A DNA stretch of 64,000 nucleotides from Candidatus Nomurabacteria bacterium GW2011_GWD2_36_14 (GTDB taxonomy: Bacteria; Patescibacteriota; Minisyncoccia; Phycocordibacterales; UBA9973). The DNA is taken from assembly GCA_000991405.1 (NCBI GenBank), contig LBRL01000001.1, forward strand, positions 3,744 through 67,743, in the 5' to 3' direction. The notes under the pieces were generated by a model that was not told where the DNA came from, made no database searches, and saw only the letters and a list, made by a program, of their open reading frames with translations. Below are positions 1,210 through 54,258 of the stretch, in pieces (position 1 is the stretch's first letter; the number at the start of each line of letters is the position of its first letter). The position numbers and the translations under genes are program-made.

Positions 1210-1308
1210 GCAAAACAGTGTATAACTTTTTGCTATATATGGTTATATTGTTGTATAATAGACATGTAACATAATTTATCTTTTATTATAACTGTCAATT
1301 ATTTTTTT

Positions 1309-2364: not shown

Positions 2365-2405
2365 TTATTATTAGTTAATTATTGTTATTATTAATTTTAT
2401 TTTTT

Positions 2406-3458: not shown

Positions 3459-3483
3459 TTATTATATATTTCTTGGTAATTAA

Positions 3484-5302: not shown

Positions 5303-5308
5303 ATATTT

Positions 5309-6199
5309 ATGAGAAAAATTATAATATTTACAATCTTTTTTATCTTAAATTTATTTATAACAAATAAGATATTTGCTGCCACTTTGACATTAGTTTCTTC
5401 AAAGGAATCTCTTGGTGTTGGTGAACAATTTTACATGGATCTCATGTTAGACCCAGAAGGAAAATCATTAAATGCCATAGAGGGAAATATTTCATTCTCG
5501 AGCGATTATGTTTCTTTCGTTCGAGCTGAGGAAGGTAAATCCATTGTCAGTCTGTGGGTAGAGAAACCAAAACTAAATAATATTAACGATAATTCTATTA
5601 ATTTCTCTGGGATTATACCCAATGGATTTAGTGGTGTTATTGATCCATTTAATCCTAAATATAAATTATCAGTCTTAGTACTTCGTTTTGTTTTTGAAGC
5701 TAAAAAGCCAGGAATAGCCAACTTTTCTTCCTTGCCTTTTTCTTTATATCTAAACGATGGATTAGGTACCGAGATAAAAGCGCTCCCCGTTAATATGTCA
5801 CTCAATATTGATAATTTTGTTTTTCATTACACATATGAGAATAAGAATGAAAGCATTCCAACCTTAGAAGCACATGTCGTACGTACTCCAAATATTTTTA
5901 ACAACAAGTATACTATCATTTTTGATGCTAGAGATAAGGAAGTAGGAATAAAAAGTGTATTTATAAAAGAAGGTAACAGCGAATGGAAAGAAATAGAAAG
6001 TCCATATAAACTTGAAGATCAATCTCGTCATAGTGACATCACCTTACAAGCTATCAACTTTTCTGAAGCTAGTATTATTATGAAGATTGATAAAGTACCA
6101 TATAGTATAAAGTTTTATATTCAAATAATTATTATTATTCTTATTGTTACTATTTCTTCTATTATTTTAATTCGAAAGAGATATCTTAAAGATAAATAA
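5309..6199 (+). CDS. Cohesin-like domain protein with a C-terminal transmembrane anchor (putative membrane-bound scaffoldin)
   Basis: It has a signal peptide. LTLVSSKESLGVGEQFYMDLMLDPEGKSLNAIEGNISFSSDYVSFV..GKSI fits the cohesin N-terminal strand pattern (V.V....V..G..F.V.V......gi.a..f.l.yd...L). The C-terminal segment FYIQIIIIILIVTISSIILIRKRY is a membrane anchor. Confidence 0.5.
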   Translation: MRKIIIFTIFFILNLFITNKIFAATLTLVSSKESLGVGEQFYMDLMLDPEGKSLNAIEGNISFSSDYVSFVRAEEGKSIVSLWVEKPKLNNINDNSINFSGIIPNGFSGVIDPFNPKYKLSVLVLRFVFEAKKPGIANFSSLPFSLYLNDGLGTEIKALPVNMSLNIDNFVFHYTYENKNESIPTLEAHVVRTPNIFNNKYTIIFDARDKEVGIKSVFIKEGNSEWKEIESPYKLEDQSRHSDITLQAINFSEASIIMKIDKVPYSIKFYIQIIIIILIVTISSIILIRKRYLKDK

Positions 6200-11669: not shown

Positions 11670-11746
11670 TGAGCAGTAGGTAGTAAGGTCTGTGTATCTT
11701 GCTACTTGCTACATTCTACATACTTCGAAATTTATATTATATAAAT

Positions 11747-12652
11747 ATGGCAAACAGGCACCTTTCACGTTCAATTGTTCTTCAGACACTCTTCGAGTGG
11801 GATTTTGCTGTTGAGAAGGATACCACCCCCGAGGAGATGCTCGAGCGTAATATACAAGAATTTGGCCCAGGTCTTGATGACTCTCACTTTATGGGTGAGA
11901 TATTTCAGGGTATCATAAAGAAAAAGGTAATTATAGATGAGATTCTTGAGAAGGCTGCTCCTGACTGGCCTATCGACAAGATTTCTATCATAGATAGGAA
12001 TATTCTTCGCCTAGGTTTATATGAACTTCTTTTTGGTGATAGAGAGCAAGTGCCTCCCAAGGTTGCTATCAATGAAGCTATCGAGCTTGGAAAAAGTTTC
12101 GGTGGAGAGAATTCTAGTCGTTTTATAAATGGAGTTCTAGGTGGTGTTTATAAGGAACTCGGCGAACCTGGTAAGGATGATGTAGGTACCAAGAAGAAGC
12201 ACAAGCACTTTGAAACCGACCCTGCCAAGTTCCCTATAGAGAAGAAGGCCGGCGCTGTGGTATATGCTATTAAGGATGGCCACATTTATTTTGCTTTCGT
12301 TCACGATGTCTTTGGATATTGGACTTTATCTAAGTGTGGAGTTAAAGAAAATGAGAGTGAAGAAGATGCAGCAATAAGAGCGATTAAAGTAGAGATGGGA
12401 GTAGATATAAAAATCAAAGAACTTCTTGGAAGAAGTGAATATATTGCAACTCATCCTGAGCAAGGCAAGATTCGCAAGCAAGTCTCATTTTTCTTAGGAG
12501 AAGGAGAATATAAAGAGTTGGTACTAGAGAAAGAAAATGGTGGGCTCGATGGTACAGAGTGGTTCCCAATGGAAGAAGTTGCCAATTTGAAAATTTACGA
12601 CAACATGATTCCACTTCTGACAAAGGCTGTAGAAATATTAACAAAAGAATAA
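11747..12652 (+). CDS. nusB: Transcription antitermination factor NusB with a ~150-aa C-terminal Nudix-like extension
   Basis: The N-terminal LSRSIVLQTLFEWDF...ILRLGLYELLF...INEAIELGKSFGGENSSRFINGVLG is NusB. The C-terminal GVKENESEEDAAIRAIKVEMGV is a degenerate Nudix box. The start was moved to the ATG at 11747. Confidence 0.8.
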   Translation: MANRHLSRSIVLQTLFEWDFAVEKDTTPEEMLERNIQEFGPGLDDSHFMGEIFQGIIKKKVIIDEILEKAAPDWPIDKISIIDRNILRLGLYELLFGDREQVPPKVAINEAIELGKSFGGENSSRFINGVLGGVYKELGEPGKDDVGTKKKHKHFETDPAKFPIEKKAGAVVYAIKDGHIYFAFVHDVFGYWTLSKCGVKENESEEDAAIRAIKVEMGVDIKIKELLGRSEYIATHPEQGKIRKQVSFFLGEGEYKELVLEKENGGLDGTEWFPMEEVANLKIYDNMIPLLTKAVEILTKE

Positions 12653-12660
12653 TTAATTTT

Positions 12661-13356
12661 ATGATTGATTTTTCCCAATTTGAAAAAAAGACAAAAATAG
12701 TTTTTAAAGACAAAAAGCTTCTCGAGCAAGCGTTTATTCACCGTTCCTATATCAATGAGAATAGTGGAGGAAAACTTTGCCACAATGAACGTCTAGAATT
12801 CCTAGGTGATGCCGTCTTAGAGCTTATCGTAACTGACTATTTATACAATAAATATCCCGATAGGGATGAAGGCGAGCTGACTGCTTATCGCTCTGCTCTT
12901 GTAAATGCAATCATCATAGGTGAGATTGCATTATCTCTAGGTATGAATGATTACCTTCTTTTGTCGAAAGGTGAAGCCAAGGACATCGGCAAGGCTCGCA
13001 GTTATATACTAGCCAATACTTATGAAGCATACGTAGGAGCCGTATATCTGGATCAAGGATACGATATAGCTCGTGATTTTATTGCAAGTACTTTATTTGG
13101 TAAGATCGACGACATTGTTGCACAGAAGCTATGGCGTGATGCCAAGAGTCTTGTTCAAGAGAAAGCCCAAGAATATATCAACGTTACTCCCTCATATAAA
13201 GTTATAAATGAAGTTGGTCCTGATCATGACAAGCATTTCACTGTCGGTATTTTCTTTGGAGAGGATAAAATAGCAGAAGGTAAAGGTCACTCCAAGCAAG
13301 AAGCTGAGCAATCGTCTGCCAGAGCAGCATTAGAAGCTAAGAATTGGCTTGATTAA
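12661..13356 (+). CDS. rnc: Ribonuclease III
   Basis: The signature is ERLEFLGDAVLELIVTDYLY, followed by a C-terminal dsRBD. The start was set at the ATG at 12661, after the nusB stop. Confidence 0.9.
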   Translation: MIDFSQFEKKTKIVFKDKKLLEQAFIHRSYINENSGGKLCHNERLEFLGDAVLELIVTDYLYNKYPDRDEGELTAYRSALVNAIIIGEIALSLGMNDYLLLSKGEAKDIGKARSYILANTYEAYVGAVYLDQGYDIARDFIASTLFGKIDDIVAQKLWRDAKSLVQEKAQEYINVTPSYKVINEVGPDHDKHFTVGIFFGEDKIAEGKGHSKQEAEQSSARAALEAKNWLD

Positions 13357-24805: not shown

Positions 24806-25106
24806 GATAGGATGAAATCCAGATTGAATAGATTGAGTTATGGCAAATCAATCCTCGTTTATTAAGGTTTTAGCATACAAAAGTGTTAAACAATATCATT
24901 GCCAGTAATTATAAATAAAAAATCTAAATAAGGTTTGGTCACCTTGTTGTTTTTTGCGTTTTAACTTTATTAATAGATTAAAACGAAGGCATATATTTAA
25001 AATTTATGAGTAGGTGTGGGCGCGCCGAAGCGTAACGAAGTGGAGCGGAGAGGGCTAAGCGAATAAATTTTAAATATACGCCGAAGTTGTAATCCAAATT
25101 ATTCAT

Positions 25107-35120: not shown

Positions 35121-35156
35121 CAAAACAATCTCCCCTAGGCAAGGCCCAGGGGAGAT
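35121..35156. terminator. Bidirectional terminator acaatctcccct-aggcaaggccc-aggggagattgt
   Basis: A 12-bp perfect stem with an A-run before and a T-run after. It lies between the convergent rpoD and dsbA-like genes. Confidence 0.65.
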
Positions 35157-38140: not shown

Positions 38141-38283
38141 TGAAAATTTGCACGACCCTCATTCAGTAGAATGACTTACGTGTGCCTCCCGCCTTGTCTC
38201 ACGACACGATTTACTAATCGGTGGTCCGGCTTTCGAATCCTCGTGCCTAATAAAAAAATACCCAAAAGGGTATTTTTTTCTAG

Positions 38284-38356
38284 AGCCGGCACGAGGATTC
38301 GAACCCCGGACATCCACTTTACAAAAGTGGCGCTCTACCAACTGAGCTATGCCGGC
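38284..38356 (-). tRNA. tRNA-Thr (anticodon UGU)
   Basis: The reverse complement GCCGGCATAGCTCAGTTGGTAGAGCGCCACTTTTGTAAAGTGGATGTCCGGGGTTCGAATCCTCGTGCCGGCT folds as a cloverleaf. The anticodon loop is TTTGTAA and the T-loop is TTCGAAT. Confidence 0.85.
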
Positions 38357-40596: not shown

Positions 40597-40623
40597 AATT
40601 CTACTAGACAGGACCTAGTCGAT
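40597..40623 (+). repeat. Degenerate copy (22/27) of the REP-like hairpin ccgactagg-caaga-cctagtcgg
   Basis: tctactagacaggacctagtcgatttt, compared with the canonical copies at 42031 and 42737. Confidence 0.5.
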
Positions 40624-40661: not shown

Positions 40662-42041
40662 ATGGAAGGATTAAATAAAAATACTCCAAAAGAAACAATC
40701 TCAGAAAATAACAGTAATCTTAAAAAGAAAGAAAAACAAATTTCAATTATTGAAATTGATGGTATTAAAATTGAGGCTCAAAAAGAATATTTTGAATATC
40801 CTGAATATATACAAAAAGAAAGTGGTGTTATTGGATATGATAGAACTATAATTGATGACAAATCATTATTTAATATTATAAACAATATATGTAAAAATAA
40901 GGGCATTGATCTTTTAAATGAGGGAGCTTTTGATTTCCATTCTTTGAAAGAAAAGATTATAAATCAATTTTCTACTTTTGTCTTAGACGAAGATCATCGT
41001 CTCAATGCAACTCCTGAATTGATTGAAATGTTTGGTGGAATGAAAAAAGAAGTACCTTCTATTTTTAGAAAAGTAGAAGAAATAATGAGAGAGTTACTCA
41101 AAGGTTTACTTTTAACATTTTCTAATGGAGAATATCCAAATAAGTGCTTTACTCACCAAATGGGTGCAGATTATAATAGAAATCGACGAGATGAATTTAA
41201 ACAAGATCTTGTGGAGAATAAATTTTTTGTTCATAAAATTTATGATATTGATTATGTAAAAGAACAAACCGACAAAAAAGGATTTGATCATACACTATTT
41301 AATGCTACTGGAGGTCTTGAATCATGGAATACTATAAAATCAGATTTGGTAATTTATGACAATACAGGGGAAGAAGTTGAGGCTGGAATGATTGCTAAGC
41401 TTGGTTCCCCTAAATATTTTGAAGGCATAAAAAATGGAAGTTTGTTTGCGTGTACTCCTAAATCAGGCTTTAATGTTGATACTGGAAAATTTTTCTATTC
41501 GCATGAAGGTGGGTTAACAGATCCAGTACCATCTTTTGGATTTTCAATGAAAAATAATATTTTTTTTCAAGAATATTTAAATAAATCATTAGATATATAC
41601 ACAAAAGAAATTAAAGGAATAGATTGGAAAGAATTAGAAGGTGGGGGTATTAACTCTATCGTTCAAGAATTAGTTTTGAGTGATTCTACGGTGCAAGAAA
41701 TAATTTATAAAAAACAAGGAGATAAAGAATATATTAAGGTTGAAAAATATGATGATTCTATTATAAGAGCAGTTAAAAACGTAGTAGAAAAAATAGAAGA
41801 AGATCACGGTATAAAATTGAATGATTACTTAATAAGTTCAGATGTTGTGGGGGATATAATTAGTTCCATGAATTCTAGAAGTGATCGTGAGAAACGCCTT
41901 CCTGTTTTTATAGGTAAAGATGATATTCCACAACTTTGTTGGGGGCACGCTTCTTTCTGTCATTTTATGAGTTCTAAAGGGTTCAATTTTATTAGATTCA
42001 AACATGCAGATCATTTGCCAAATAAAGATAAAACCGACTAG
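40662..42041 (+). CDS. Hypothetical protein (459 aa, no recognisable domain). Its stop codon lies inside a REP-like hairpin
   Basis: It is a long ORF with balanced composition. No motif is recognised. It ends with the TAG embedded in the hairpin at 42031-42060. Confidence 0.5.
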   Translation: MEGLNKNTPKETISENNSNLKKKEKQISIIEIDGIKIEAQKEYFEYPEYIQKESGVIGYDRTIIDDKSLFNIINNICKNKGIDLLNEGAFDFHSLKEKIINQFSTFVLDEDHRLNATPELIEMFGGMKKEVPSIFRKVEEIMRELLKGLLLTFSNGEYPNKCFTHQMGADYNRNRRDEFKQDLVENKFFVHKIYDIDYVKEQTDKKGFDHTLFNATGGLESWNTIKSDLVIYDNTGEEVEAGMIAKLGSPKYFEGIKNGSLFACTPKSGFNVDTGKFFYSHEGGLTDPVPSFGFSMKNNIFFQEYLNKSLDIYTKEIKGIDWKELEGGGINSIVQELVLSDSTVQEIIYKKQGDKEYIKVEKYDDSIIRAVKNVVEKIEEDHGIKLNDYLISSDVVGDIISSMNSRSDREKRLPVFIGKDDIPQLCWGHASFCHFMSSKGFNFIRFKHADHLPNKDKTD

Positions 42042-42060
42042 GCAAGACCTAGTCGGTTTT
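42031..42060. repeat. REP-like hairpin aaaaccgactagg-caaga-cctagtcggtttt (copy 1)
   Basis: A 9-bp perfect stem with a 5-nt loop, and A/T runs on both sides. It is identical to 42737-42768. Confidence 0.85.
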
Positions 42061-42061
42061 G

Positions 42062-42718
42062 TTATTTATTATAATTAAGCCATTCAAAAATTTCTTTTGT
42101 GAATGATTTTTTGTTTGGAAAATATTTTGGAAAGGTTTCTTTATTTAAAATATTGTTTTGAATTCTTTCTATCCCCAAATAATCAAGATAACTACTATAT
42201 TGGTAATTGTATAAATATTCTAAGGTTTCTTTTTTATTTTTAACCCCGACTTCTTTCCAATCTTTTTGTATAAGTTTTATTGGATTTAAGTGAATATATG
42301 AAAATAAGTATTTTAAATAACGCTCTTCACTTACATGCTCTGATTTAAATTTACCTTCAAAAAGTCCACCAGTATGTTTGTATTTTTTATTATAATACAT
42401 TACATATGCAGTAGTTAATTTTTGCATAAATTTGCTTATACTGCCATCTTCTATCTGTGTTATAAGAATATGAAAATGATTAGGCATAATACAAAAAGAT
42501 CCTATTGATACTAACTGCTTGCCCCTTTCAAAATCATATGGGCTTTCTTTTACACCAAGACCAAACATTCTGAAATTATTTTCAGAATTACAAGCAAACA
42601 TAAGACCCATAAAATGAAAACAATCCTCATTGTCATGAAAGATTTTTTGTTTACTATTACCACGATTAAATACATGATAATACTCATTATTAACTAGGTT
42701 TACCTTTCTAATAGACAT
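42062..42718 (-). CDS. IS200/IS605-family Y1 (HuH) transposase of the REP-associated tyrosine transposase (RAYT) type
   Basis: YHVFNRG, the HuH motif MPNHFHILI, and the catalytic Tyr region YLFSYIHLNPIK. The gene is bracketed by identical hairpins. Confidence 0.7.
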   Translation of the reverse strand: MSIRKVNLVNNEYYHVFNRGNSKQKIFHDNEDCFHFMGLMFACNSENNFRMFGLGVKESPYDFERGKQLVSIGSFCIMPNHFHILITQIEDGSISKFMQKLTTAYVMYYNKKYKHTGGLFEGKFKSEHVSEERYLKYLFSYIHLNPIKLIQKDWKEVGVKNKKETLEYLYNYQYSSYLDYLGIERIQNNILNKETFPKYFPNKKSFTKEIFEWLNYNK

Positions 42719-42736
42719 AATTATATTATATACTTA

Positions 42737-42768
42737 AAAACCGACTAGGCAAGACCTAGTCGGTTTTT
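42737..42768. repeat. REP-like hairpin aaaaccgactagg-caaga-cctagtcgg-tttttt (copy 2)
   Basis: It is identical to copy 1 and lies directly upstream of proS. Confidence 0.85.
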
Positions 42769-42801
42769 TGTTTTGACCCAAAGTGATTTTTAGGGTAGTA
42801 T

Positions 42802-45917: not shown

Positions 45918-47216
45918 ATGAAGAAAGCTATTGATTTTAAAATTGAAAAAAGGTTAGAGGGATTTCTAGGTAGAGCAGGGACTCTGACTACACCGCATGG
46001 AGTTATTGAGACTCCGTCTTTTGTCGTTGTAGGTACAAAAGGTACAGTCAAGGCCATGACTCCCGAACAACTCAAGGAGATAGGTGTGCAAGTTACACTT
46101 GCCAATACTTATCATCTTTATCTACAACCAGGAAATGAGCTTATACGTGAGGCAGGAGGTTTGCACAAGTTCATGAATTGGCAGGGGCCCATGATGACAG
46201 ACTCTGGTGGATTCCAAGTATTTTCTCTTGGTGTGGCTTACGGCAAAGAGCTTTCCAAAGTTGTTTCTGTAACTGATCCTAGCTTGCTTATTCCGGAAAG
46301 GTCCACGGCAGAAGATGGAGTACCAAGACTTGCAACCATAGGGAACGATGGAGTTTCTTTCCGATCACACTTAGATGGATCGCTTCATTATATAACTCCA
46401 GAAAAGTCTATCGAGATTCAGCACAACTTAGGAGCCGATATTATATTTGCTTTTGATGAATGTACTTCTCCGACTGAGACTGCTCGATACCAAGAAGAAG
46501 CTCTTTCTCGTACTCACTCTTGGGCCAAGAGGAGTTTGGAGGAGCATAAGAAACGGGAGGAAGCAAAGCAAGAATATGCGAATTCTTCACGCTTTACCCT
46601 AAAGGGCTCCGACGCGACTCAGAATTCTCATATTCTTGCTTCACTTCCTCAGGCTCTCTTTGGTATTGTTCAAGGTGGACGTAGTGAAGAACTTAGGAAG
46701 AAGTCTGCTAAAGTTATAGGAGAAATGGACTTCGATGGTTTTGGTATTGGTGGTTCTTTTGCAAAAGAGGATATGTCTACTGCTGTAAAGTGGGTCAATG
46801 AAGTGCTCCCAGAAGACAAGCCTCGCCATTTACTAGGTATCGGTGAACCGGAAGACTTATTTTCTGGAGTAGAAAACGGAGTAGATCTCTTTGACTGCGT
46901 CGGCCCTACTCGCATTGCTCGCAACGGGACAATGTTTACAAAGAACGGCAAGATAAATATTCTCAATGCAAAGTTTGTAAAAGATTTTGGTTCAGTAGAT
47001 GAAGGGTGCGGTTGTAATACTTGCCAGAATTATACTCGAGCTTATCTTTCACATTTATTCCGTGCCAAGGAAATGCTAGGAGCAACCCTTGCTTCTATTC
47101 ATAATGTCTACTTCATCACAAATCTTGTAAAGCAAATGCGCAATGCTATACTAAATGATACATTCCATGAATTTAAAAATGAATTTTTAAAAAATTATGC
47201 CAAACAAAGTATTTAA
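45918..47216 (+). CDS. tgt: Queuine tRNA-ribosyltransferase, carrying an in-frame ~24-aa insertion
   Basis: TPHGVIETPSFV..., LGIGEPEDL and the zinc site CGCNTCQNYTRAYLSHL. The start is the ATG at 45918. The insertion QEYANSSRFTLKGSDATQNSHILA lies between WAKRS and ALFGIVQGG. Confidence 0.9.
   Translation: MKKAIDFKIEKRLEGFLGRAGTLTTPHGVIETPSFVVVGTKGTVKAMTPEQLKEIGVQVTLANTYHLYLQPGNELIREAGGLHKFMNWQGPMMTDSGGFQVFSLGVAYGKELSKVVSVTDPSLLIPERSTAEDGVPRLATIGNDGVSFRSHLDGSLHYITPEKSIEIQHNLGADIIFAFDECTSPTETARYQEEALSRTHSWAKRSLEEHKKREEAKQEYANSSRFTLKGSDATQNSHILASLPQALFGIVQGGRSEELRKKSAKVIGEMDFDGFGIGGSFAKEDMSTAVKWVNEVLPEDKPRHLLGIGEPEDLFSGVENGVDLFDCVGPTRIARNGTMFTKNGKINILNAKFVKDFGSVDEGCGCNTCQNYTRAYLSHLFRAKEMLGATLASIHNVYFITNLVKQMRNAILNDTFHEFKNEFLKNYAKQSI
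46569..46638 (+). repeat. In-frame palindromic miniature element (copy in tgt)
   Basis: caagaatatgcgaattct-tcacgctttaccctaaagggctccgacgcgactc-agaattctcatattcttg. It has 18-bp inverted arms and a conserved 30-bp core that is nearly identical in uvrA and uvrC. Confidence 0.85.
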
Positions 47217-49356
47217 ATTAAAGAGTGAATATAAACCCGATGGTGATCAGCCCAAGGCTATAAAAGATCTTCTAGAGGGTCTTAAGAAGGGTTTCCGTAA
47301 GCAAACACTTCTGGGTGCTACTGGTACAGGCAAGACTTTTACTATAGCCAATGTTATCGAAGAATGGGGGAAGCCGACCTTAGTCATAGCTCACAATAAA
47401 ACTCTCGCAGCTCAACTTGCTCAAGAATTTAGGGAGTTTTTCCCTGATGCCGCTGTTCACTATTTCGTGTCTTATTATGACTATTATCAGCCAGAAGCTT
47501 ATATGCCAGTGACTGATACTTATATAGAGAAGGACGCTCAGATAAACAAAGAGATAGACAGGCTTCGTCATGCTACGACGCAGTCTCTACTTACTCGTCC
47601 AGACGTCATTATTGTAGCTTCGGTCTCTTGTATTTATGGTCTAGGAAGTCCAGAAGAATATGAGAAGGTAAATTTAAAACTTGAAATTGGTTCTAAAATT
47701 AGCCGAACCGATATTATGAGAAAATTACTTGGAGTTCATTTTGAAAGAACGAATTCAGACCTTACTCCAGGAACTTTCCGTTCTATTGGAGATAGAGTAG
47801 AAGTCATGCCTATATCGGAGACTTTTATTTATCAGATAGAATTTGCAGGAGGTGCTATTTCTAAAATTTTAAAAGTAGACCCTGTGTCTGCTCATGTTTT
47901 GAAAGAAGAGCAAGGAATATTCCTTTTCCCTGCCAAGCATTTTATTACCGAGACAGAGAAAGTAAAAGTGGCGCTTAAGAATATTAAATTAGAATTGACA
48001 CAGCAATTAAAAAAGTTTGAGAAGGAAGGCAAGCTTCTTGAGGCAGAGAGAATTAAAAGACGAACCAATTATGATTTAGCTATGATAAAGGAAGTTGGCT
48101 ATTGTAGTGGTATCGAGAATTACAGTAGACAGCTTTCTGGAAAGAAGGAAGGGGAAGCCCCAGATACACTCCTCTCATATTTCAAGAGTGATTTCTTAAC
48201 TATTATCGATGAGTCTCATGTGACCCTGCCTCAGCTAGGTGGTATGTACGCTGGTGATGCCTCTCGCAAGAAGACTCTTGTAGACTTCGGCTTCCGTCTG
48301 CCTTCTGCCAAGGACAATAGGCCTCTTAAATACAATGAATTTGAAGAAAGAATTGGAGATGTCATATACGTATCAGCTACTCCAAGTGAGACAGAAAGGA
48401 CTACAAGTGCTCAGGTAGTCGAACAGATTATTCGCCCTACAGGGCTTATAGATCCAGAAATATTGGTAAGGCCAGTCTCTGTAATGGGTTCCCTTAGGTC
48501 GGACCTAGGGGCAAATAGTAAAGAATTAAAGACCCTAGGTCCGACCTATGGTCCATACCCTGGACAAATAGAAGACTTTGTACAAGAAGCCGATAGAGTT
48601 ATCAAGAAAGGTTTTCGTGCTATTGCTACGACTCTTACTAAGAAGATGGCAGAGGATCTAACTTTGTTCTTAAAAGAAAAGGGATTCAAAGCAGAGTACT
48701 TACATAGTGATATTAAAACCATAGAGAGAATTCAAATACTTTCTTCTTTTAGAAGAGGGGACTTCGACATTCTTATCGGAGTCAATTTGCTTCGCGAAGG
48801 ATTAGACTTGCCAGAGTTAGCCCTCATAGGAATCTTGGATGCAGACAAAGAAGGCTTCCTTCGCTCAGAAACTTCGCTTATTCAGATTATAGGGCGTGCT
48901 GCTCGTAACGTAGAAGGTAGAGTAGTACTATATGCTGATCATATGACCAAGGCGCTAGAGAGTGCCATAGGCGAGACGAACAGACGAAGAGATATACAGA
49001 TAGCTTACAACAAGAAGCACGGTATCACCCCCAAGACTATTATAAAAAATATTAAAGACATTACAGAAGAGCTCGAGAACAAACACGAGAAGGCTGTGAA
49101 TGTAGAGCTAGACTTGGATGTAGAATTGTTCAAGAAGACTTTTGTAACTAGCAAGAGCAATAAGGGTAAGGGAGAAAGAGAGTCTATCAAGAATTTGCTT
49201 CTTTCAGATGAAGACAGGAATAAAAGTATTTACGAGAAGATAATAAAGATAAAAGAGAAGGAGATGAATAAGGCAGTGAAAGAATTAGACTTCGAAACAG
49301 CTGCAATACTTCGAGATGAGATAATTGTTTTGAATGATAAATTTTTAGGCAAATAA
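47197..49356 (+). CDS. uvrB: Excinuclease ABC subunit B
   Basis: Walker A GATGTGKT, the helicase motifs, and the C-terminal UVR domain ETAAILRDEI. Confidence 0.95.
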   Translation: MPNKVFKLKSEYKPDGDQPKAIKDLLEGLKKGFRKQTLLGATGTGKTFTIANVIEEWGKPTLVIAHNKTLAAQLAQEFREFFPDAAVHYFVSYYDYYQPEAYMPVTDTYIEKDAQINKEIDRLRHATTQSLLTRPDVIIVASVSCIYGLGSPEEYEKVNLKLEIGSKISRTDIMRKLLGVHFERTNSDLTPGTFRSIGDRVEVMPISETFIYQIEFAGGAISKILKVDPVSAHVLKEEQGIFLFPAKHFITETEKVKVALKNIKLELTQQLKKFEKEGKLLEAERIKRRTNYDLAMIKEVGYCSGIENYSRQLSGKKEGEAPDTLLSYFKSDFLTIIDESHVTLPQLGGMYAGDASRKKTLVDFGFRLPSAKDNRPLKYNEFEERIGDVIYVSATPSETERTTSAQVVEQIIRPTGLIDPEILVRPVSVMGSLRSDLGANSKELKTLGPTYGPYPGQIEDFVQEADRVIKKGFRAIATTLTKKMAEDLTLFLKEKGFKAEYLHSDIKTIERIQILSSFRRGDFDILIGVNLLREGLDLPELALIGILDADKEGFLRSETSLIQIIGRAARNVEGRVVLYADHMTKALESAIGETNRRRDIQIAYNKKHGITPKTIIKNIKDITEELENKHEKAVNVELDLDVELFKKTFVTSKSNKGKGERESIKNLLLSDEDRNKSIYEKIIKIKEKEMNKAVKELDFETAAILRDEIIVLNDKFLGK

Positions 49357-49623: not shown

Positions 49624-49724
49624 AATGATTTAATTTCATTCTTATATTACTTATTTCAAAATCTTTGTCAAGCTTATGGTTTTGTGTTATTATGTGACTA
49701 GTTAAATATTGATTCACCCCCACA

Positions 49725-49784
49725 CCCATATTTTTATTGCAGGTAATCCTGCGTTGAAAACTATAAAAATATAGGTGTGGGGGT
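49725..49784. promoter_or_regulatory. GC-rich inverted repeat cacccccacacccatatttttat ... ataaaaatataggtgtgggggt, with G5/C5 tracts, upstream of uvrA
   Basis: It has 21-bp arms with one mismatch and a ~15-nt spacer containing the mini-hairpin gcagg-taatc-ctgc. A further tract gggggtatacaccccc follows. Confidence 0.4.
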
Positions 49785-49922: not shown

Positions 49923-52598
49923 ATGATAAAAAAAAGTGAAAATTCTGACGGGGCAAGAATAATAATAAAAGGAGCTCGTACTCACAATCTGAAGAATATT
50001 AGTGTTGAGATGCCTAGGAATAAAATGATAGTTATTACTGGTATGTCAGGCTCTGGGAAGTCTTCTTTGGCGTTTGATACTATCTTTGCTGAAGGTCAGC
50101 GTCGCTATGTGGAGAGTCTTTCGGCTTATGCCCGCCAATTCTTGAATCAAATGCCGAAGCCCGATGTCGATGAGATTACTGGTCTTTCTCCTGCTATTTC
50201 TATAGACCAGAAGTCTCGGTCGAACAATCCTCGTTCGACAGTTGCGACCATCACTGAAATATATGACTATCTTCGTGTTCTTTATGCACGTATCGGGCAC
50301 CCTCATTGTCCAGAATGTGGCAATGAGATCAAGAAGCTTTCAAATGATGAAATACTTCACTTTGCCATAGATAAGATAAAGAATTTTCAAAAGGATAACA
50401 AGAAAAAGAAAGTAATGGGTGTCGAATGGAACGAAGCACCTATCTCCATTCTTGCTCCTGTTGTTCGAGGTAGGAAAGGTGAGTATTATCAACTTCTTTA
50501 TGATTTACTCAATAAAGGATTTGCCGAGGTTCGTCTCGATGGACAGATCAAGAAACTAAGAGAGAGAATCGATATTACGAAGACAAAGAAACACGACATA
50601 GAAGTTATCGTAGATACTTTCGCTATTCATGAATTTAAAGACAATGAGAAGGATTCTTACTCAAGATTAGCTGAGAGTGTTGAGAGGGCTCTATTAGAGT
50701 CAGACGGACTTGTAATTATTAAAATAGATGAAGATGAATACCTTATGTCTTCCAAGTTCTCTTGTGCTATTGACGGCTTCGCTTTTCCTGAAATAGAGCC
50801 TAGGCTCTTCTCTTTCAATTCTCCGTACGGAGCCTGTCCTACTTGTAATGGGCTTGGTACCAAGTATTTTGGTGGCACAGAGCCCTGCGATGATTGTAAG
50901 GGCTTGCGATTACGACCTGAAGCACTTCATGTATATTTAGGCCAATCCGCTTCGCAGAAACATAAAAATTCTTCCCGCTTTACCCTAAAGGGCTCCGACG
51001 CGGATAAGAATTTTCATGTTTCTGCTTCGCTTAACATTGTAGATGTTACGAAGTTATCAATCGCTGATGTTGCTGACTTTTTTATTGAACTACAGTTGAA
51101 TGATCAAGAAAAGGAAATTTCGAAGGTTGTCATAAAAGAGATTGAAGCTCGAATACAATTCTTACTGAACGTAGGGCTTGATTATTTATCACTCGATAGA
51201 AAAGCCAATACTCTCTCAGGAGGAGAAGCACAGAGGATACGCTTGGCTTCACAGTTAGGTTCACGACTTGTCGGAGCTTTGTATGTACTCGATGAACCGA
51301 CGATAGGTTTACACCAGAGAGATAATGATAAACTCATCAAGACACTAGAAAATCTTCGTGACCTAGGGAATACTATCATAGTAGTTGAACACGACGAAGA
51401 TACTATATATGCATCGGATTATATTGTAGATATAGGCCCGAAAGCTGGAGTACATGGAGGGCAAGTTATCGTGTCGGATTATTTACAAGATTTACTAGAT
51501 GCACCAAAGAACGTTTCTAATTCTAGAACTTTGGCATATCTTAGAAATGAAGTCAGAATAGAAATTCCAGAGAAAAGAAGGAATAGTGATAAGGGTGCTA
51601 TTAAAATAATTGGAGGTAAAATTTTCAATATTGAAAATTTAAATGCGGAAGTTCCACTAGGAAAGCTTGTAACTATTACTGGAGTATCAGGAAGTGGGAA
51701 GAGTTCCTTTGTGTATGAGATTATTCACAAGAATCTTCAGGCCAGATACGAAAGGAAGTTTAGAACAGCAAAGATTTTCAACTGTGCATCTTTCACTGGG
51801 ACGGAATATGCTTCTCGCGTCGTTCTTATCGATCAGTCTCCGATAGGCCGTACTCCTCGCTCCAACTTGGCTACTTATACAGGCGCCTTTACTCATATCC
51901 GTGACATGTTTGCCTTAAGTGAAGAAGCAAGGCTCAAAGGTTGGAAGGCCAATAGATTCTCTTTCAATGTGAAAGGTGGGCGTTGTGAAGCTTGTGAAGG
52001 TAATGGCGAGGTAGCGGTAGAGATGCACTTCCTTCCTACTGTGTATGTCACTTGTGACGTATGTAATGGCAAGAGATTCGATAAGGAGACCCTGACTGTG
52101 AAGTACAAGAAGAAGAATATTTATGAAGTTCTTCAAATGACAGTTGAAGAAGCGATTGTGTTTTGGGAAGATATTCCGGCTGTTTATGATCGTATGAAGA
52201 CTCTTATGGAAGTCGGTCTTGGCTATGTGAAACTTGGTCAGTCTGCTACAACTCTCTCAGGAGGAGAAGCACAACGTGTGAAAATTTCTTCAGAACTTTT
52301 TAGACCATATGAAGAGAAAACAATATATCTATTAGACGAGCCAACAGTTGGACTTCATTACGATGATGTAGCTAAGTTGCTTGAAGTTTTGAATAGACTT
52401 GTAAATAAAGGCAATAGTGTAGTGGTAATAGAGCACAATATGGATATTATAAAGTCTTCAGACCATATCATAGATATTGGTCCTGAAGGAGGGTTAGGTG
52501 GTGGCAAGATTGTAGCTAAGGGAACTCCTGAAGAAGTTGCTAATACAATAGGAAGTCATACGGGTAAATATCTTAAAAAAGTTTTGAAGAGGAAATAA
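49923..52598 (+). CDS. uvrA: Excinuclease ABC subunit A (short, 891 aa), carrying an in-frame insertion
   Basis: It has two ABC modules (GMSGSGKSSL, GVSGSGKSS, LSGGEAQR twice) and zinc fingers. The insertion QKHKNSSRFTLKGSDADKNFHVSA follows PEALHVYLG. Confidence 0.95.
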   Translation: MIKKSENSDGARIIIKGARTHNLKNISVEMPRNKMIVITGMSGSGKSSLAFDTIFAEGQRRYVESLSAYARQFLNQMPKPDVDEITGLSPAISIDQKSRSNNPRSTVATITEIYDYLRVLYARIGHPHCPECGNEIKKLSNDEILHFAIDKIKNFQKDNKKKKVMGVEWNEAPISILAPVVRGRKGEYYQLLYDLLNKGFAEVRLDGQIKKLRERIDITKTKKHDIEVIVDTFAIHEFKDNEKDSYSRLAESVERALLESDGLVIIKIDEDEYLMSSKFSCAIDGFAFPEIEPRLFSFNSPYGACPTCNGLGTKYFGGTEPCDDCKGLRLRPEALHVYLGQSASQKHKNSSRFTLKGSDADKNFHVSASLNIVDVTKLSIADVADFFIELQLNDQEKEISKVVIKEIEARIQFLLNVGLDYLSLDRKANTLSGGEAQRIRLASQLGSRLVGALYVLDEPTIGLHQRDNDKLIKTLENLRDLGNTIIVVEHDEDTIYASDYIVDIGPKAGVHGGQVIVSDYLQDLLDAPKNVSNSRTLAYLRNEVRIEIPEKRRNSDKGAIKIIGGKIFNIENLNAEVPLGKLVTITGVSGSGKSSFVYEIIHKNLQARYERKFRTAKIFNCASFTGTEYASRVVLIDQSPIGRTPRSNLATYTGAFTHIRDMFALSEEARLKGWKANRFSFNVKGGRCEACEGNGEVAVEMHFLPTVYVTCDVCNGKRFDKETLTVKYKKKNIYEVLQMTVEEAIVFWEDIPAVYDRMKTLMEVGLGYVKLGQSATTLSGGEAQRVKISSELFRPYEEKTIYLLDEPTVGLHYDDVAKLLEVLNRLVNKGNSVVVIEHNMDIIKSSDHIIDIGPEGGLGGGKIVAKGTPEEVANTIGSHTGKYLKKVLKRK
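50955..51024 (+). repeat. In-frame palindromic miniature element (copy in uvrA)
   Basis: cagaaacataaaaattctt-cccgctttaccctaaagggctccgacgcggat-aagaattttcatgtttctg. The arms are complementary to each other but differ from those of the tgt and uvrC copies. Confidence 0.85.
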
Positions 52599-52992: not shown

Positions 52993-54258
52993 ATGAATAG
53001 TCAACAGGTCAAAAAAATAGGTTTGCCAGATAAATCAGGGGTTTATTTTTTCAAGGTGGGGGATAAGATTCTCTATATAGGCAAGGCCACTTCTTTGCGG
53101 GATAGGGTAAAGAGCTATTTTTCTAAGGATATCATCGTTACCAGAGGGTCACATATCTTAGATATGACGGTAAAAGCGGATAGGGTAGAATGGCAGGAAA
53201 CTGGTAGTGTGCTGGAAGCCTTAATACTTGAGGCGAACTTAATAAAGAAATATAAGCCGAAATACAATACCAAAGAGAAAGACAATAAGAGTTTCAACTA
53301 TGTCTGCATTACCAAAGATAAATTACCCAAGGTTTTAATTGTTCGTGGTAGAGGAATGGATAAAAAGTTGTATAGCAAAGTTTATGGTCCATTCCCCAAT
53401 GGTCAGCAATTAAAAGAAGCGATGAAAATCATTCGTAGAATTTTCCCGTATTTTGATAATGATTCGTTAAAGAAAAATAATAGAGAATTTTACAAACAAA
53501 TAGGATTAGTACCTATAGTTGAATATAAAAACAATATAAAGAATCTTAAATTATTTTTCGAAGGGAAAAAGAAAAGCATAATAATAAATTTGAAGAAGGA
53601 AATGCTAGCTTTTGCAAAAAAGAAAGAATTCGAGAAAGCTGGTGAAGTTAAGAATAGAATTTTTGCTTTGAATCATATAAATGATGTTGCTCTTATAAAA
53701 GAAGATTTAATTGCTCCACAGAAAAACGCTTCACAGGAATATGCGAATTTTTCGCGCTTTACCCTAAAGGGCTCCGACGCGACTCAAAATTCGCATATTC
53801 CTGTTTCGCTTTTTCGTATCGAAGCTTATGATGTGGCTCACATGGGAGGCAAGGATATGGTGGGAGTTATGACTGTCGTTGAGAATGGTGAAGTCAATAA
53901 AAGTGAATACAAGAAGTTCATTATCAGAACTCAAAGTGATGCGAATGACACAGGAGCACTCGAGGAAGTACTTTCTCGTAGATTGCGTCATACAGAGTGG
54001 GGACTACCTAGTTTGGTTGTTGTCGACGGTAGTACCGCTCAAGTAAATGTGGCCAAGAGAATTCTTGCCAGATATCAGTTTAAGGTACCTATAGTCGGAG
54101 TTGTGAAAGATGACAAACATAGACCGAAAGCACTTATAGGGAGTGAAGAAATAATTAAAATATACAAAAAGCAGATCCTACTTGCCAATAGTGAGTCGCA
54201 TAGGTTTGCAATTACTTTCCATAAACAAAAGAGAAATAAAAGTTTCTTAAATAAGTAA
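52993..54258 (+). CDS. uvrC: UvrC-like excinuclease (GIY-YIG N-terminus; short, lacks the C-terminal HhH/RNaseH-like region), carrying an in-frame insertion
   Basis: The GIY-YIG motif is GVYFFKVGDKILYIGKATSLRDRVKSYF. A UvrBC-interaction-like region is present. The insertion is QEYANFSRFTLKGSDATQNSHIPV. Confidence 0.75.
   Translation: MNSQQVKKIGLPDKSGVYFFKVGDKILYIGKATSLRDRVKSYFSKDIIVTRGSHILDMTVKADRVEWQETGSVLEALILEANLIKKYKPKYNTKEKDNKSFNYVCITKDKLPKVLIVRGRGMDKKLYSKVYGPFPNGQQLKEAMKIIRRIFPYFDNDSLKKNNREFYKQIGLVPIVEYKNNIKNLKLFFEGKKKSIIINLKKEMLAFAKKKEFEKAGEVKNRIFALNHINDVALIKEDLIAPQKNASQEYANFSRFTLKGSDATQNSHIPVSLFRIEAYDVAHMGGKDMVGVMTVVENGEVNKSEYKKFIIRTQSDANDTGALEEVLSRRLRHTEWGLPSLVVVDGSTAQVNVAKRILARYQFKVPIVGVVKDDKHRPKALIGSEEIIKIYKKQILLANSESHRFAITFHKQKRNKSFLNK
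53734..53803 (+). repeat. In-frame palindromic miniature element (copy in uvrC)
   Basis: caggaatatgcgaatttt-tcgcgctttaccctaaagggctccgacgcgactc-aaaattcgcatattcctg. It has perfect 18-bp arms. Confidence 0.85.

What the first reader, a model, noticed from the sequence alone, without database searches (positions are those of the whole stretch)
50955..51024. uvrA copy of the in-frame palindromic element: arms diverged from the other copies but still self-complementary
The conserved core is present with one substitution (gcggat versus gcgact). The arms are cagaaacat(a/g)aaaattctt. They share only the inner aattct with the tgt and uvrC copies, yet they still pair with each other. This favours a structure-maintaining process (hairpin-templated repair or transposition as a foldback) over decay of a dead insertion. 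The encoded peptide changes accordingly, to QKHKNSSRFTLKGSDADKNFHVSA.
Basis: seen in the sequence. Interest (0 to 1): 0.7.

Follow-up and report, generated by a model that had tools for sequence, protein, structure and literature searches.

The report
In-frame REP-like hairpin repeat in uvrA
The uvrA feature is one copy of an ~82-base hairpin-forming repeat that is scattered through the tiny genomes of Patescibacteria (CPR bacteria), both between genes and translated in frame inside them; it resembles the known REP and Rickettsia palindromic elements, and its stem is actively kept paired instead of decaying.

Summary
Window 50954-50973 and 51006-51025 pair at 19 of 20 positions around a 32-nt core, in frame in uvrA. 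Identical 27-nt cores sit in tgt and uvrC.

A public scan found 117 copies in about 38 Patescibacteria genomes. The arms differ between copies but pair within each: 85% of cells are paired against 63% when shuffled, and all 20 arm pairs show double-sided changes. Nine orthologous copies in RNase HII show the same. Between orthologous carriers, fourfold-degenerate sites are near saturation (0.43-0.46 identity in uvrA for the two more distant carriers), while arms stay 0.75-0.93 identical with no codon periodicity. The constraint is therefore on the nucleic acid, not the peptide.

The better-folding strand is the complement of the coding strand. It carries CGTC/TGTC, or GTAG in sister families, next to a short GC hairpin. 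These are the known tags of REP elements, and some Rickettsia RPEs carry the CGTC form. The window also encodes a RAYT-like Y1 transposase, but its flanking hairpins belong to another family, so the enzyme link is only inferred.

Verdict: a new CPR variant of the REP/RPE kind, moderately interesting.

The parts
50949..51030 (+). The whole uvrA copy of the hairpin element ('type A'), about 82 nt. From the outside in: 2 outer base pairs, a TTC/TTC internal loop, 20-bp arms and a 32-nt apical core.
50954..50973 (+). Left arm, GCAGAAACATAAAAATTCTT
   Evidence: 19 of 20 positions pair with the right arm; the single mismatch is A.C on this strand, which is G.T on the complement.
51006..51025 (+). 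Right arm, AAGAATTTTCATGTTTCTGC
50974..51005 (+). Apical core. It has an inner helix (CCGC 50975-50978 with GCGG 51000-51003), conserved internal-loop strands TTTA and CTCCGAC, and a tip hairpin CCC-TAAA-GGG (50983-50992). On the complementary strand, GACG at 50997-51000 reads CGTC.
49923..52598 (+). Host gene uvrA. The element is read through as a peptide of about 27 aa, at a point where Geobacillus UvrA (2r6f) has only 2 residues.
46563..46644 (+). tgt copy of the same family
   Evidence: 86.5 bits
53728..53809 (+). uvrC copy of the same family. At this site L026 has an unrelated short linker, L007 (the closest relative) has a short palindrome containing CCGAC that may be a remnant, and L029 has a clear remnant of the element.
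   Evidence: (95.9 bits)
42062..42718 (-). RAYT-like Y1 (HUH) transposase gene, flanked by identical hairpins at 42030-42062 and 42736-42770. It shows that a hairpin-specific ssDNA enzyme of the class that acts on REPs is encoded in this genome. Its link to type A is inferred only.

Best explanation
**What it is.** The uvrA feature is a copy of a multi-copy, REP/RPE-type hairpin repeat found in Paceibacteria-type Patescibacteria. An asymmetric, conserved apical module sits on top of a 20-25 bp AT-rich stem whose sequence drifts but whose pairing is kept.

**How it spreads and turns over.**
- Whole hairpins have been copied to many loci without target-site duplication.
- Copies landing in coding DNA survive only where the open frame of the element fits the host frame and the site tolerates an extra loop of about 27 aa. 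They are therefore read through, giving ..SRFTLKGSDA...
- Once in place, copies are inherited vertically for long periods. They occasionally exchange halves with other copies, and they are lost by internal deletion.

**What maintains it.**
- The constraint acts on the nucleic acid as a single-stranded fold of one particular strand.
- In this sub-family that strand is the complement of the coding strand. It carries a CGTC/TGTC or GTAG tetranucleotide 5' of a short GC hairpin, and purine-rich GNA/GNA loops near the stem base.
- This anatomy is the one recognised on single-stranded REP DNA by REP-associated tyrosine (Y1/HUH) transposases.
- Several RAYT-like genes are encoded in these genomes, one of them 4 kb upstream of the tgt copy.

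**Shown:** family membership, covariation, slow evolution, strand asymmetry, the tags, and the presence of RAYT-like genes.

**Inferred:** that a RAYT-like enzyme binds or mobilises this family, that the relevant single strand is DNA and not RNA, and that the peptide is present in the mature protein.
For: **Family and distribution**
- 117 copies with the exact 20-mer core occur in 109 stretches from about 38 CPR genomes, with up to 13 per genome.
- A covariance-model scan of 100 held loci finds 12 more diverged copies.

**Covariation**
- Over 109 copies, 85.1% of cells pair against 62.6% when shuffled. The covariation score is 0.504 against 0.131 shuffled and at most 0.145 with partners slid. 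All 20 arm pairs have double-sided changes.
- At one orthologous RNase HII site in 9 genomes, 93.3% of cells pair, 16 of 28 pairs carry double changes and none carries a one-sided change.
- The tip hairpin also covaries: CCC/GGG, CCCC/GGGG, CCCAG/CTGGG and CCCGTC/GACGGG. The loop strands TTTA and CTCCGAC stay fixed.

**Slow, non-coding-type constraint**
- Fourfold-site identity between carriers is 0.68 for the closest pair in uvrA (window versus L007) and 0.41-0.46 for the other five pairs. Arms are 0.75-0.93 and the core 0.88-1.0 identical between the window and the other three uvrA carriers.
- Arm identity shows no codon periodicity; position 3 is 0.72-0.88 identical.

**Strand asymmetry**
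- On the coding strand, A.C/C.A mismatches number 88 against 24 G.T/T.G. After de-duplicating sub-families the counts are 63 against 22.
- At pair 39-61, 36 of 109 copies are unpaired against 2 with T.G. Those 36 carry A at column 61 opposite C39, i.e. C.A, which reads TGTC on the complement.
- The complementary strand folds better in 106 of 109 copies, and in 100 of 109 when only the arms are folded.
- The same holds for the GTAG-bearing strand of sister families B and C and of sub-variant A2.

**Tags**
- The complement reads CGTC in 70 copies and TGTC in 36. A2, B and C read GTAG at the same position.
- These are the two REP heads, including the TGVC-type variant TGTC, described in PMC3733652.

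**Host genes**
- Hosts are uvrA (3 sites), uvrC (2 sites), ligA, rnhB, dprA, a pseudouridine synthase, tgt, tsaD and aminoacyl-tRNA synthetases.
- Intragenic REPs elsewhere show the same bias towards repair genes and pseudouridine synthase genes.

**RAYT-like genes**
- The window gene 42062-42718 scores 39.3 bits against Pfam Y1_Tnp (cut-off 23) and carries HFH and YIHLNP motifs.
- It has 5267 homologues, mainly named Nomurabacteria/Paceibacterota where named, with conserved synteny.
- Eight more paralogues lie in the held loci.

**Mobility and turnover**
- The same arms and the same mismatch occur at different loci of one genome.
- Sites differ in presence and absence between relatives, and deletion remnants are seen.
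Against: - No RAYT-like gene examined is flanked by type A. Each is flanked by its own private hairpin, such as CTAGG-TCTTG-CCTAG. PMC3733652 states that CGTC REPs have no dedicated transposase.
- Type A is not built like a REPIN. It has one asymmetric apex on AT-rich arms, not two inverted REP units.
- The apical stem is only 3-6 bp, shorter than the 8-9 bp stems described for CGTC REPs.
- Most copies were found through an exact 20-mer, so core conservation is over-estimated. Among extra copies found by the model, most have variant cores.
- Sub-families are not independent, so the mismatch statistics are weaker than the raw counts suggest; the ratio is 37 to 21 at the coarsest clustering.
- No expression or protein data are available.
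Confidence: 0.68

Rival explanations
1. Neutral palindrome. The copies are simply young, or mismatches are erased by quasi-palindrome template-switch correction during replication. Under this view arm complementarity needs no selection and the element has no activity or function.
For: - Template switching at quasi-palindromes is an established mutational route (own knowledge).
- It would produce double-sided changes without G.T intermediates, matching the 0 one-sided changes and their rarity.
- A double transversion is seen at one pair among the uvrA orthologues: A.C in the window and L007, C-G in L052, G-C in L026.
- Palindrome-type internal deletions are frequent.
Against: - Orthologous copies sit in genomes whose synonymous sites are close to saturation, so the copies are not young.
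- Templated correction does not slow substitution, yet arms and core change much more slowly than fourfold sites.
- The unpaired loop strands are the most conserved part, which correction cannot explain.
- Shared mismatches persist across copies.
- The strand asymmetry of mismatches is unexplained by this model.
Confidence: 0.12
2. cis-acting mRNA structure. The hairpin is selected as RNA in the host transcripts, for example as an RNase III site, a stabiliser or a translational pause, and its spread is secondary.
For: - All 43 in-ORF copies with the exact core, and 37 of the 46 intergenic copies that lie between co-directional genes, have the same orientation as the genes.
- The genome encodes RNase III and RNase R.
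- REPs elsewhere are thought to act as RNA elements.
Against: - In type A, the strand that would be in the mRNA is the worse-folding one. It is less stable in 106 of 109 copies and shows A.C mismatches where wobble pairs would be expected.
- G.U pairs are very rare.
- Nine intergenic copies are antisense to both neighbours.
- At the same RNase HII site the element occurs in either orientation in different lineages.
- There is no Rfam match.
Confidence: 0.08
3. Host-level DNA site. The conserved apex is kept because the host uses it as a chromosomal site, for example for a nucleoid protein, gyrase or termination, as proposed for E. coli REPs. Mobility would be only historical.
For: - Nucleotide-level conservation in situ over long times.
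- Intergenic copies fill spacers between genes.
- A sister hairpin family with a conserved apex looks like a set of bidirectional terminators.
- REP roles in supercoiling and termination are discussed in PMC3733652.
Against: - Close relatives lose copies without obvious replacement.
- Copy number varies from 1 to 13 per genome.
- A double-stranded DNA site would not show strand-asymmetric mismatches or require pairing of the arms.
Confidence: 0.09
4. Peptide module or intron-like segment. Either the ~27-aa peptide is itself the selected unit, or the segment is removed from the RNA so that it never reaches the protein.
For: - One frame is used in 43 of 44 in-ORF copies, giving a hydrophilic peptide.
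Against: - About 60% of copies are intergenic.
- Arm conservation has no codon periodicity.
- If the segment were spliced out there would be no need for an open frame, yet every in-ORF copy keeps one.
- The one-frame bias is partly explained by stop codons, since only frames S2, S1 and A1 are ever open.
- Opposite-orientation copies escape the exact-core search because they have altered cores.
Confidence: 0.03

Closest known systems
REP elements with GTAG or CGTC heads, including intragenic REPs (Di Nocera et al. 2013, PMC3733652)
   Same: - A strand-specific tetranucleotide (CGTC, its variant TGTC, or GTAG) lies next to a short GC-rich hairpin.
- Many dispersed copies occur mostly between co-directional genes.
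- Intragenic copies encode 20-30 aa and sit preferentially in uvrABC, ligase and pseudouridine synthase genes.
- RAYT-like genes are present in the genome.
   Different: - Here a single asymmetric apex sits on a long (20-25 bp) AT-rich covarying stem, instead of an 8-9 bp stem unit or a head-to-head dimer.
- The apical stem is only 3-6 bp.
- CGTC- and GTAG-tagged forms are clear homologues at the same site (A1 versus A2).
- The host is a CPR bacterium, a group not covered by that survey.
Rickettsia palindromic elements (RPE; Ogata et al. 2000, 2002, as summarised in PMC10969869 and PMC3733652)
   Same: - Palindromic repeats in a reduced genome, inserted in frame in many unrelated housekeeping genes and also between genes.
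- Each carries a conserved encoded peptide.
- RPE-4 and RPE-6 carry the CGTC tag.
   Different: - A different phylum.
- No sequence relationship was tested.
- RPE-1 is longer (about 100-150 bp).
- No RAYT link is described for RPEs.
REPIN-RAYT systems (Bertels and Rainey 2011, PMC3116915 and PMC3337134; PMC5581495; bioRxiv 10.1101/2021.07.10.451892)
   Same: - Hairpin-forming non-autonomous repeats of about 100 nt.
- They co-reside with vertically inherited, non-mobile Y1 transposase genes.
- They persist for a long time within lineages (abstracts; synteny).
   Different: - A REPIN is two inverted REPs with conserved arms and a variable spacer. Type A has a conserved centre and variable arms.
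- The RAYT-like genes found here are flanked by other hairpins, not by type A.
- The uvrB palindrome at 48492-48551 fits the REPIN layout better.
Classical bacterial MITEs (Correia/NEMIS, ERIC, RUP, Nezha)
   Same: Small, multi-copy, non-coding, hairpin-forming elements that are sometimes intragenic.
   Different: There are no sequence-conserved terminal inverted repeats, no target-site duplication and no parent insertion sequence.

Membership tests
REP (GTAG/CGTC-tagged palindromic repeats) | Conserved GTAG or CGTC (variants TGTC, CCTC) tetranucleotide at one end of the stem-loop, on one specific strand | tested here: met
   The complement of alignment columns 58-61 reads CGTC in 70 copies and TGTC in 36 of 109. 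A2, type B and type C read GTAG at the same position. The definition comes from PMC3733652.
REP (GTAG/CGTC-tagged palindromic repeats) | Short unit of 20-40 bp with a stem of about 8-9 bp or more and a 4-5 nt loop, often forming head-to-head dimers | tested here: not met
   The apical stem is 3-6 bp (CCC/GGG up to CCCGTC/GACGGG). The unit is embedded singly in an ~82-nt hairpin and there is no second tag in the other half.
REP/REPIN-RAYT system | A cognate RAYT gene flanked by the same repeat (a REPtron) | tested here: inconclusive
   RAYT-like genes are present (window 42062-42718 and 8 more in about 0.85 Mb of loci). All are flanked by other hairpins, and none by type A. Whole genomes could not be scanned. 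CGTC REPs are reported to lack a dedicated transposase.
REP/REPIN-RAYT system | [quoted passage not shown] | tested here: not met
   In type A the centre is conserved and asymmetric, and the arms are variable and AT-rich.
REP/REPIN-RAYT system | Insertion without target-site duplication (expected for Y1/HUH enzymes) | tested here: met
   The flanking TNC triplets are part of the hairpin, not duplications. The middle base is the same on both sides in only 12 of 35 copies, and the two bases beyond them covary as pairs. No repeat is seen outside the hairpin.
Rickettsia palindromic elements (RPE) | Palindromic repeat inserted in frame in ORFs of unrelated function, adding a conserved peptide, and also present between genes | tested here: met
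   44 of 117 copies lie in long ORFs, at about 18 independent sites in at least 12 gene families, and all keep the frame open. The rest are intergenic.
Rickettsia palindromic elements (RPE) | Sequence homology to the RPE-1 to RPE-10 consensus sequences | not testable with these tools
   No RPE sequences or models were available. Rfam has no such family and gave no match.
Classical MITE | Sequence-conserved terminal inverted repeats matching a parent IS, and a target-site duplication | tested here: not met
   Arms vary between copies. No split or autonomous copy was found. Genes lying between pairs of copies are housekeeping genes. There is no target-site duplication.
Integron attC site | Conserved R''/R' boxes (RYYYAAC / GTTRRRY) at the base of the hairpin, with sites arrayed next to an integrase gene | tested here: not met
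   By inspection of the 109 aligned copies, the stem bases read GYTNCGCAG...CTGCTNCRC and the copies are dispersed singly. No intI gene was looked for.
Any curated RNA family (Rfam 15) | Score at or above a family's gathering threshold | tested here: not met
   Only 4 tRNAs were found in the window. The best hits on the element are miRNA-precursor models at 20-22 bits against cut-offs of 55-70.

The most novel reading that the evidence does not exclude
CGTC-tagged REPs, GTAG-tagged REPs and RPE-like 'protein-coding palindromes' are one system. In CPR bacteria a single hairpin family switches between the two tags at the same chromosomal site. It is held under purifying selection as a strand-specific single-stranded DNA fold even inside essential repair genes. 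It co-persists vertically with domesticated RAYT-like enzymes. On this reading, a REPIN-RAYT-type partnership reaches into the coding sequence of some of the smallest known genomes.
Probability: 0.3. Interest if true: 0.7.

Novelty: new variant of a known kind. Interest (0 to 1): 0.5.

Why it matters
- These genomes are among the most streamlined known, yet they keep families of hairpin repeats, even inside uvrA, uvrB, uvrC, ligA and rnhB.
- If the constraint seen here is real, the repeats are long-lived structured DNA elements and not junk awaiting deletion.
- The family offers a clean natural experiment. It has many orthologous in-frame copies, both tag types in obvious homologues, and candidate Y1 enzymes next door. 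It can be used to ask how REP-type elements are recognised, why repair genes are hit again and again in unrelated phyla, and whether CGTC and GTAG repeats use the same machinery. PMC3733652 left that last question open.
- Practically, the inserts add 20-30 residues to conserved proteins, and they change between close relatives. This affects alignments, gene calls and strain typing of CPR genomes.

Tried and rejected
- **Rfam**, with the gathering threshold on the whole window and a permissive scan on the element: nothing relevant.
- **Literature.** A full-text search for the core string, and for palindromic element or MITE together with CPR names, found no description. Ogata 2002 (PMC186582) is not held.
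- **Viral contigs:** no copy of the core, so there is no sign of a phage vector.
- **Split or autonomous copies.** No half-cores were found separated by an ORF. Genes lying between pairs of copies are SerRS, Pth plus DprA, and DnaB, not transposases.
- **Target-site duplication:** rejected. The apparent direct repeat GCTTCGC is an internal loop plus two covarying pairs of the hairpin itself.
- **Orientation versus replication strand by local GC skew:** confounded with coding strand and uninformative.
- **Proximity of RAYT-like genes to type A copies:** 8-9 of about 105 loci against roughly 4 expected on a rough estimate. This is too weak to use.
- **K-turn, tetraloop-receptor and attC readings of the core** were considered by inspection and dropped because the motifs do not fit.
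- **Pristine empty sites for exact insertion boundaries.** The 'empty' relatives examined at the rnhB site (L113) and at the uvrC site (L029, and possibly L007) turned out to be deletion remnants.
Full report
**1. The observation**

At 50954-50973 and 51006-51025 the window has a 20-nt inverted repeat, 95% complementary, with 32 nt between the arms. The 90-nt stretch folds at -32 kcal/mol (z = -6.1; none of 200 shuffles does as well). It lies in frame in an 891-aa ORF (49923-52598) that is UvrA by Pfam, and it encodes ..SASQKHKNSSRFTLKGSDADKNFHVSASL...

In Geobacillus UvrA (2r6f) only two residues lie where this protein has about thirty. The segment is therefore an insertion relative to characterised UvrA.

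The 27-nt core CGCTTTACCCTAAAGGGCTCCGACGCG occurs three times in the window, in tgt, uvrA and uvrC, always on the + strand and in the same frame. A covariance model run with filters off finds only these three, at 86-96 bits; the next best hit scores 26 bits.

Two details of the finding need correction:
- The uvrA arm shares 14 of 20 positions with the tgt arm, not only AATTCT.
- The junction differs at several positions. It belongs to a recurrent sub-variant (CCCGC...GCGGAT) that adds one C-G pair.

**2. It is a large family in CPR bacteria**

An exact search for 20 nt of the core in one genome per species returned 109 stretches. All are from Patescibacteria MAGs labelled Nomurabacteria, Paceibacterota, Nealsonbacteria, Vogelbacteria or Minisyncoccales, plus bins labelled Saccharibacteria. 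Together with the window this gives 117 copies in about 38 genomes, up to 13 per genome. The window's closest relative among them is Nomurabacteria GW2011_GWE2_34_25, at 88% nucleotide identity in uvrA.

**3. Where the copies sit**

- 44 copies lie inside long ORFs and about 70 lie in tight intergenic spacers.
- The in-ORF copies occupy about 18 independent sites. These are uvrA (three sites), uvrC (two), tgt, RNase HII, DprA (two), an RluA-type pseudouridine synthase, LigA-, IleRS-, LeuRS- and PheT-like proteins, TsaD and WecG.
- 43 of the 44 use one frame.
- Part of this bias is a stop-codon filter. In 69 intergenic copies only frames S2 (29 copies), S1 (12) and A1 (9) are ever open.
- Part of it is ascertainment. 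At the RNase HII site some lineages carry the element in the opposite orientation, with a core altered so that it has no stops (L111). The exact-core search misses such copies.

**4.

On an almost ungapped alignment of 109 copies, a structure of 20 arm pairs, a 4-bp inner helix and a 3-bp tip gives these results:

| Measure | Observed | Shuffled | Partner slid |
|---|---|---|---|
| Cells paired | 85.1% | 62.6% (0 of 500 shuffles reach it) | 34.3-49.5% |
| Covariation score | 0.504 | 0.131 | at most 0.145 |
| Arm pairs with double-sided changes | 20 of 20 | not compared | not compared |

The stem continues past a TNC/TNC internal loop with two further covarying pairs.

Restricting the test to one orthologous site (RNase HII, nine genomes) gives 93.3% pairing. 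16 of 28 pairs carry double-sided changes and none carries a one-sided change.

The tip hairpin covaries too: CCC/GGG, CCCC/GGGG, CCCAG/CTGGG and CCCGTC/GACGGG. The unpaired strands TTTA and CTCCGAC stay fixed.

Arm complementarity is far better than chance, so the condition the finding named as its refutation is not met.

**5. Not a decaying insertion**

Carriers of the same insertion site are deeply diverged:

| Measure, uvrA, window versus other carriers | Identity |
|---|---|
| Fourfold-degenerate sites, versus L052 and L026 | 0.46 and 0.43 |
| Fourfold-degenerate sites, versus the closest relative L007 | 0.68 |
| Arms | 0.75-0.93 |
| Core | 0.88-1.0 |

Fourfold-site identity ranges from 0.32 to 0.68 across the uvrA and tgt sets, and falls to 0.11 in the most distant RNase HII pairs. 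Arm identity shows no codon periodicity, with position 3 at 0.72-0.88. The constraint is therefore on nucleotides, not on the peptide.

An unbiased look through 120 RNase HII orthologues shows the same arms kept across many species. At that one site the core toggles between sub-variants, other hairpin families occupy the site, and partial duplications and short remnants occur.

**6. Turnover**

- Copies at different loci of one genome share both the arms and the same A.C mismatch (PMDZ01: L019, L024, L055, L023). The whole hairpin is therefore copied as it is.
- There is no target-site duplication.
- Close relatives differ by internal deletions that leave remnants. L021 and L113 have 96% identical flanks. 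At the window's uvrC site L029 carries a clear remnant, and L007 carries a short palindrome that may be one.
- The tgt copy of L007 is a chimera. It has the left arm of the window's tgt copy joined to a core end and proximal right arm of the uvrA/A2 type. This indicates conversion between copies.

**7. Which strand matters**

- On the coding strand, arm mismatches are mostly A.C/C.A (88) and not G.T/T.G (24). After collapsing sub-families the counts are 63 to 22, or 37 to 21 at the coarsest level.
- At the pair closing the inner helix, 36 copies are unpaired and only 2 have T.G. The 36 carry A at column 61 opposite C, i.e. C.A.
- The pyrimidine loop TNC/TNC reads GNA/GNA on the other strand.
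- Accordingly the complementary strand folds better in 106 of 109 copies, by a mean of -7.9 kcal/mol. With the core replaced by a neutral loop it still folds better in 100 of 109, and with DNA parameters in 97 of 109.
- This is not what selection on the mRNA predicts. The GC skew of the window would favour the opposite mismatch type (inference).

**8. What the favoured strand looks like**

Read on the favoured strand, the apex is 5'-CGTC-GGAG-CCC-TTTA-GGG-TAAAG-CG. The tag is CGTC in 70 copies and TGTC in 36.

- Sub-variant A2 differs by four substitutions in the same arms at the same RNase HII site (L110). It reads GTAG at that position. So do the opposite-orientation form (type C, L111) and a second family (type B).
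- Type B has 7 copies. One lies in the window at 24976-25094. One lies at the very uvrA site in L029.
- In all of these the GTAG-bearing strand is the better-folding one.

GTAG and CGTC (with the variant TGTC) are exactly the two heads that define the REP super-families in Di Nocera et al. 2013. That paper also reports the following (PMC3733652):
- R. conorii RPE-4 and RPE-6 are CGTC repeats.
- Intragenic REPs encode 20-30 residues.
- Intragenic REPs lie preferentially in uvrABCD, recBCD, polymerase, ligase and pseudouridine synthase genes.
- E. coli RAYT cleaves single-stranded REP DNA at GTAG.

**9. A candidate enzyme class is present, but the link is not shown**

Window 42062-42718 (- strand) encodes a 218-aa protein. 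It matches Pfam Y1_Tnp above its cut-off and NCBIfam 'REP-associated tyrosine transposase' below its cut-off. It carries HFH and YIHLNP motifs.

- It has more than 5000 homologues, mostly named Nomurabacteria/Paceibacterota where named. It keeps the same neighbours (a class II aaRS and MreB) in other genomes, which suggests a resident gene and not a mobile one.
- It is flanked on both sides by an identical hairpin. That hairpin's apex, CTAGG-TCTTG-CCTAG, is conserved across genomes while its lower stem covaries. This is the same 'conserved top, drifting stem' design as type A.
- Eight more paralogues lie in the held loci, each with its own private flanking hairpin. None is flanked by type A.
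- This matches the published remark that CGTC REPs lack a dedicated transposase.

Mobilisation or binding of type A by a RAYT-like enzyme therefore remains an inference.

**10. Verdict**

The feature is real, and its stem is maintained by a constraint on a single-stranded fold. It belongs to the known kind of REP/RPE-type palindromic repeats that can sit in frame in genes.

What is new:
- The host group.
- The architecture, a single tagged apex on a long covarying stem.
- The clear homology between CGTC- and GTAG-tagged forms.
- The quantitative evidence for in-situ, strand-specific constraint inside essential genes.

No description was found in the searchable literature. The interest is moderate: it extends an existing picture and does not overturn it.

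Noticed in passing
window 24976-25094: A second hairpin family ('type B') lies just upstream of rpoB. It has 32-nt arms around the core GTAGGTGTGGGCGCGCC...GAGAGGGCTAAGCGA. Six more copies are in the fetched loci, one of them in frame at the same uvrA site in L029 (537 region). The GTAG-bearing strand folds better.
   Followed up: partly
window 48492-48551 (inside uvrB, 47197-49356): Another in-frame palindrome, CCTTAGGTCGGACCTAGGG ...22 nt... CCCTAGGTCCGACCTATGG, encodes ..GSLRSDLGANSKELKTLGPTYG... Each arm is itself a small palindrome, so this one has the REPIN (inverted doublet) layout. Its unit resembles the hairpin that flanks the RAYT-like gene. This means that tgt, uvrB, uvrA and uvrC all carry in-frame palindromes.
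   Followed up: partly
window 42030-42062, 42736-42770, 40604-40618 and 35135-35149; also L065, L015, L014, L011, L049, L052 and L068: A dispersed hairpin family with an invariant apex CTAGG-TCTTG-CCTAG (or CCTAGG-CCTTG-CCTAGG) and covarying lower stems, often with A-run and T-run flanks like bidirectional terminators. It flanks the RAYT-like gene in every genome examined. In the window there are 14 matches against 2.5 expected.
   Followed up: partly
L007:512-611 (the tgt copy of the closest relative): A chimeric copy. The left arm is identical to the window's tgt copy. The 3' part of the core and the proximal right arm are of the uvrA/A2 type, and the arms are now poorly paired (44 bits). 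This suggests half-element conversion between copies.
   Followed up: partly
RNase HII orthologues P0002, P0004, P0022, P0024 and others; L080:3901-4000: Partial tandem duplications of the element or of its left end at the same site (for example ..TLKGSDATQNLNNFAPYQLKGSDADKN.. and ..TSQFSKAASQNLPNF..). A similar duplicated left terminus (GCTCCACAG ... GCTTCACAG) lies before the window's uvrC copy at about 53711-53736.
   Followed up: no
L105 uvrA (site about residue 260) and L007/L052 uvrA (site about residue 160): Other short in-frame palindromes (CCCGCCCGA..TCGGGCGGG and CCCCGTAAAA..TTTAACGGGG) lie at the same uvrA positions that carry type A in other genomes. The same few permissive sites are used repeatedly by different hairpins.
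   Followed up: no
window 49923-52598: This UvrA lacks about 113 residues that are present in Geobacillus UvrA (2r6f residues 305-417) between the two halves of the zinc module.
   Followed up: no
window 38224-38311: A 24-nt inverted repeat, 92% complementary. An inverted partial copy of the 3' end of the tRNA gene at 38284-38356 faces that gene across a terminator-like hairpin.
   Followed up: no
window 49716-49784: A strong hairpin (22-nt arms ACCCCCACACCCATATTTTTAT, 95% complementary, -38 kcal/mol) lies between the two tRNA genes and the uvrA start. Its core is unrelated to type A.
   Followed up: no
window 181-6199: Six consecutive ORFs of 266-358 aa have no Pfam match. The first three are paralogues (35-67% identity), each with an N-terminal hydrophobic segment and Ser/Thr/Ala-rich sequence, possibly surface proteins.
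   Followed up: partly
window 11699-12652: A single ORF combines a NusB domain with a NUDIX domain. RNase III (12559-13356) follows and overlaps it.
   Followed up: no
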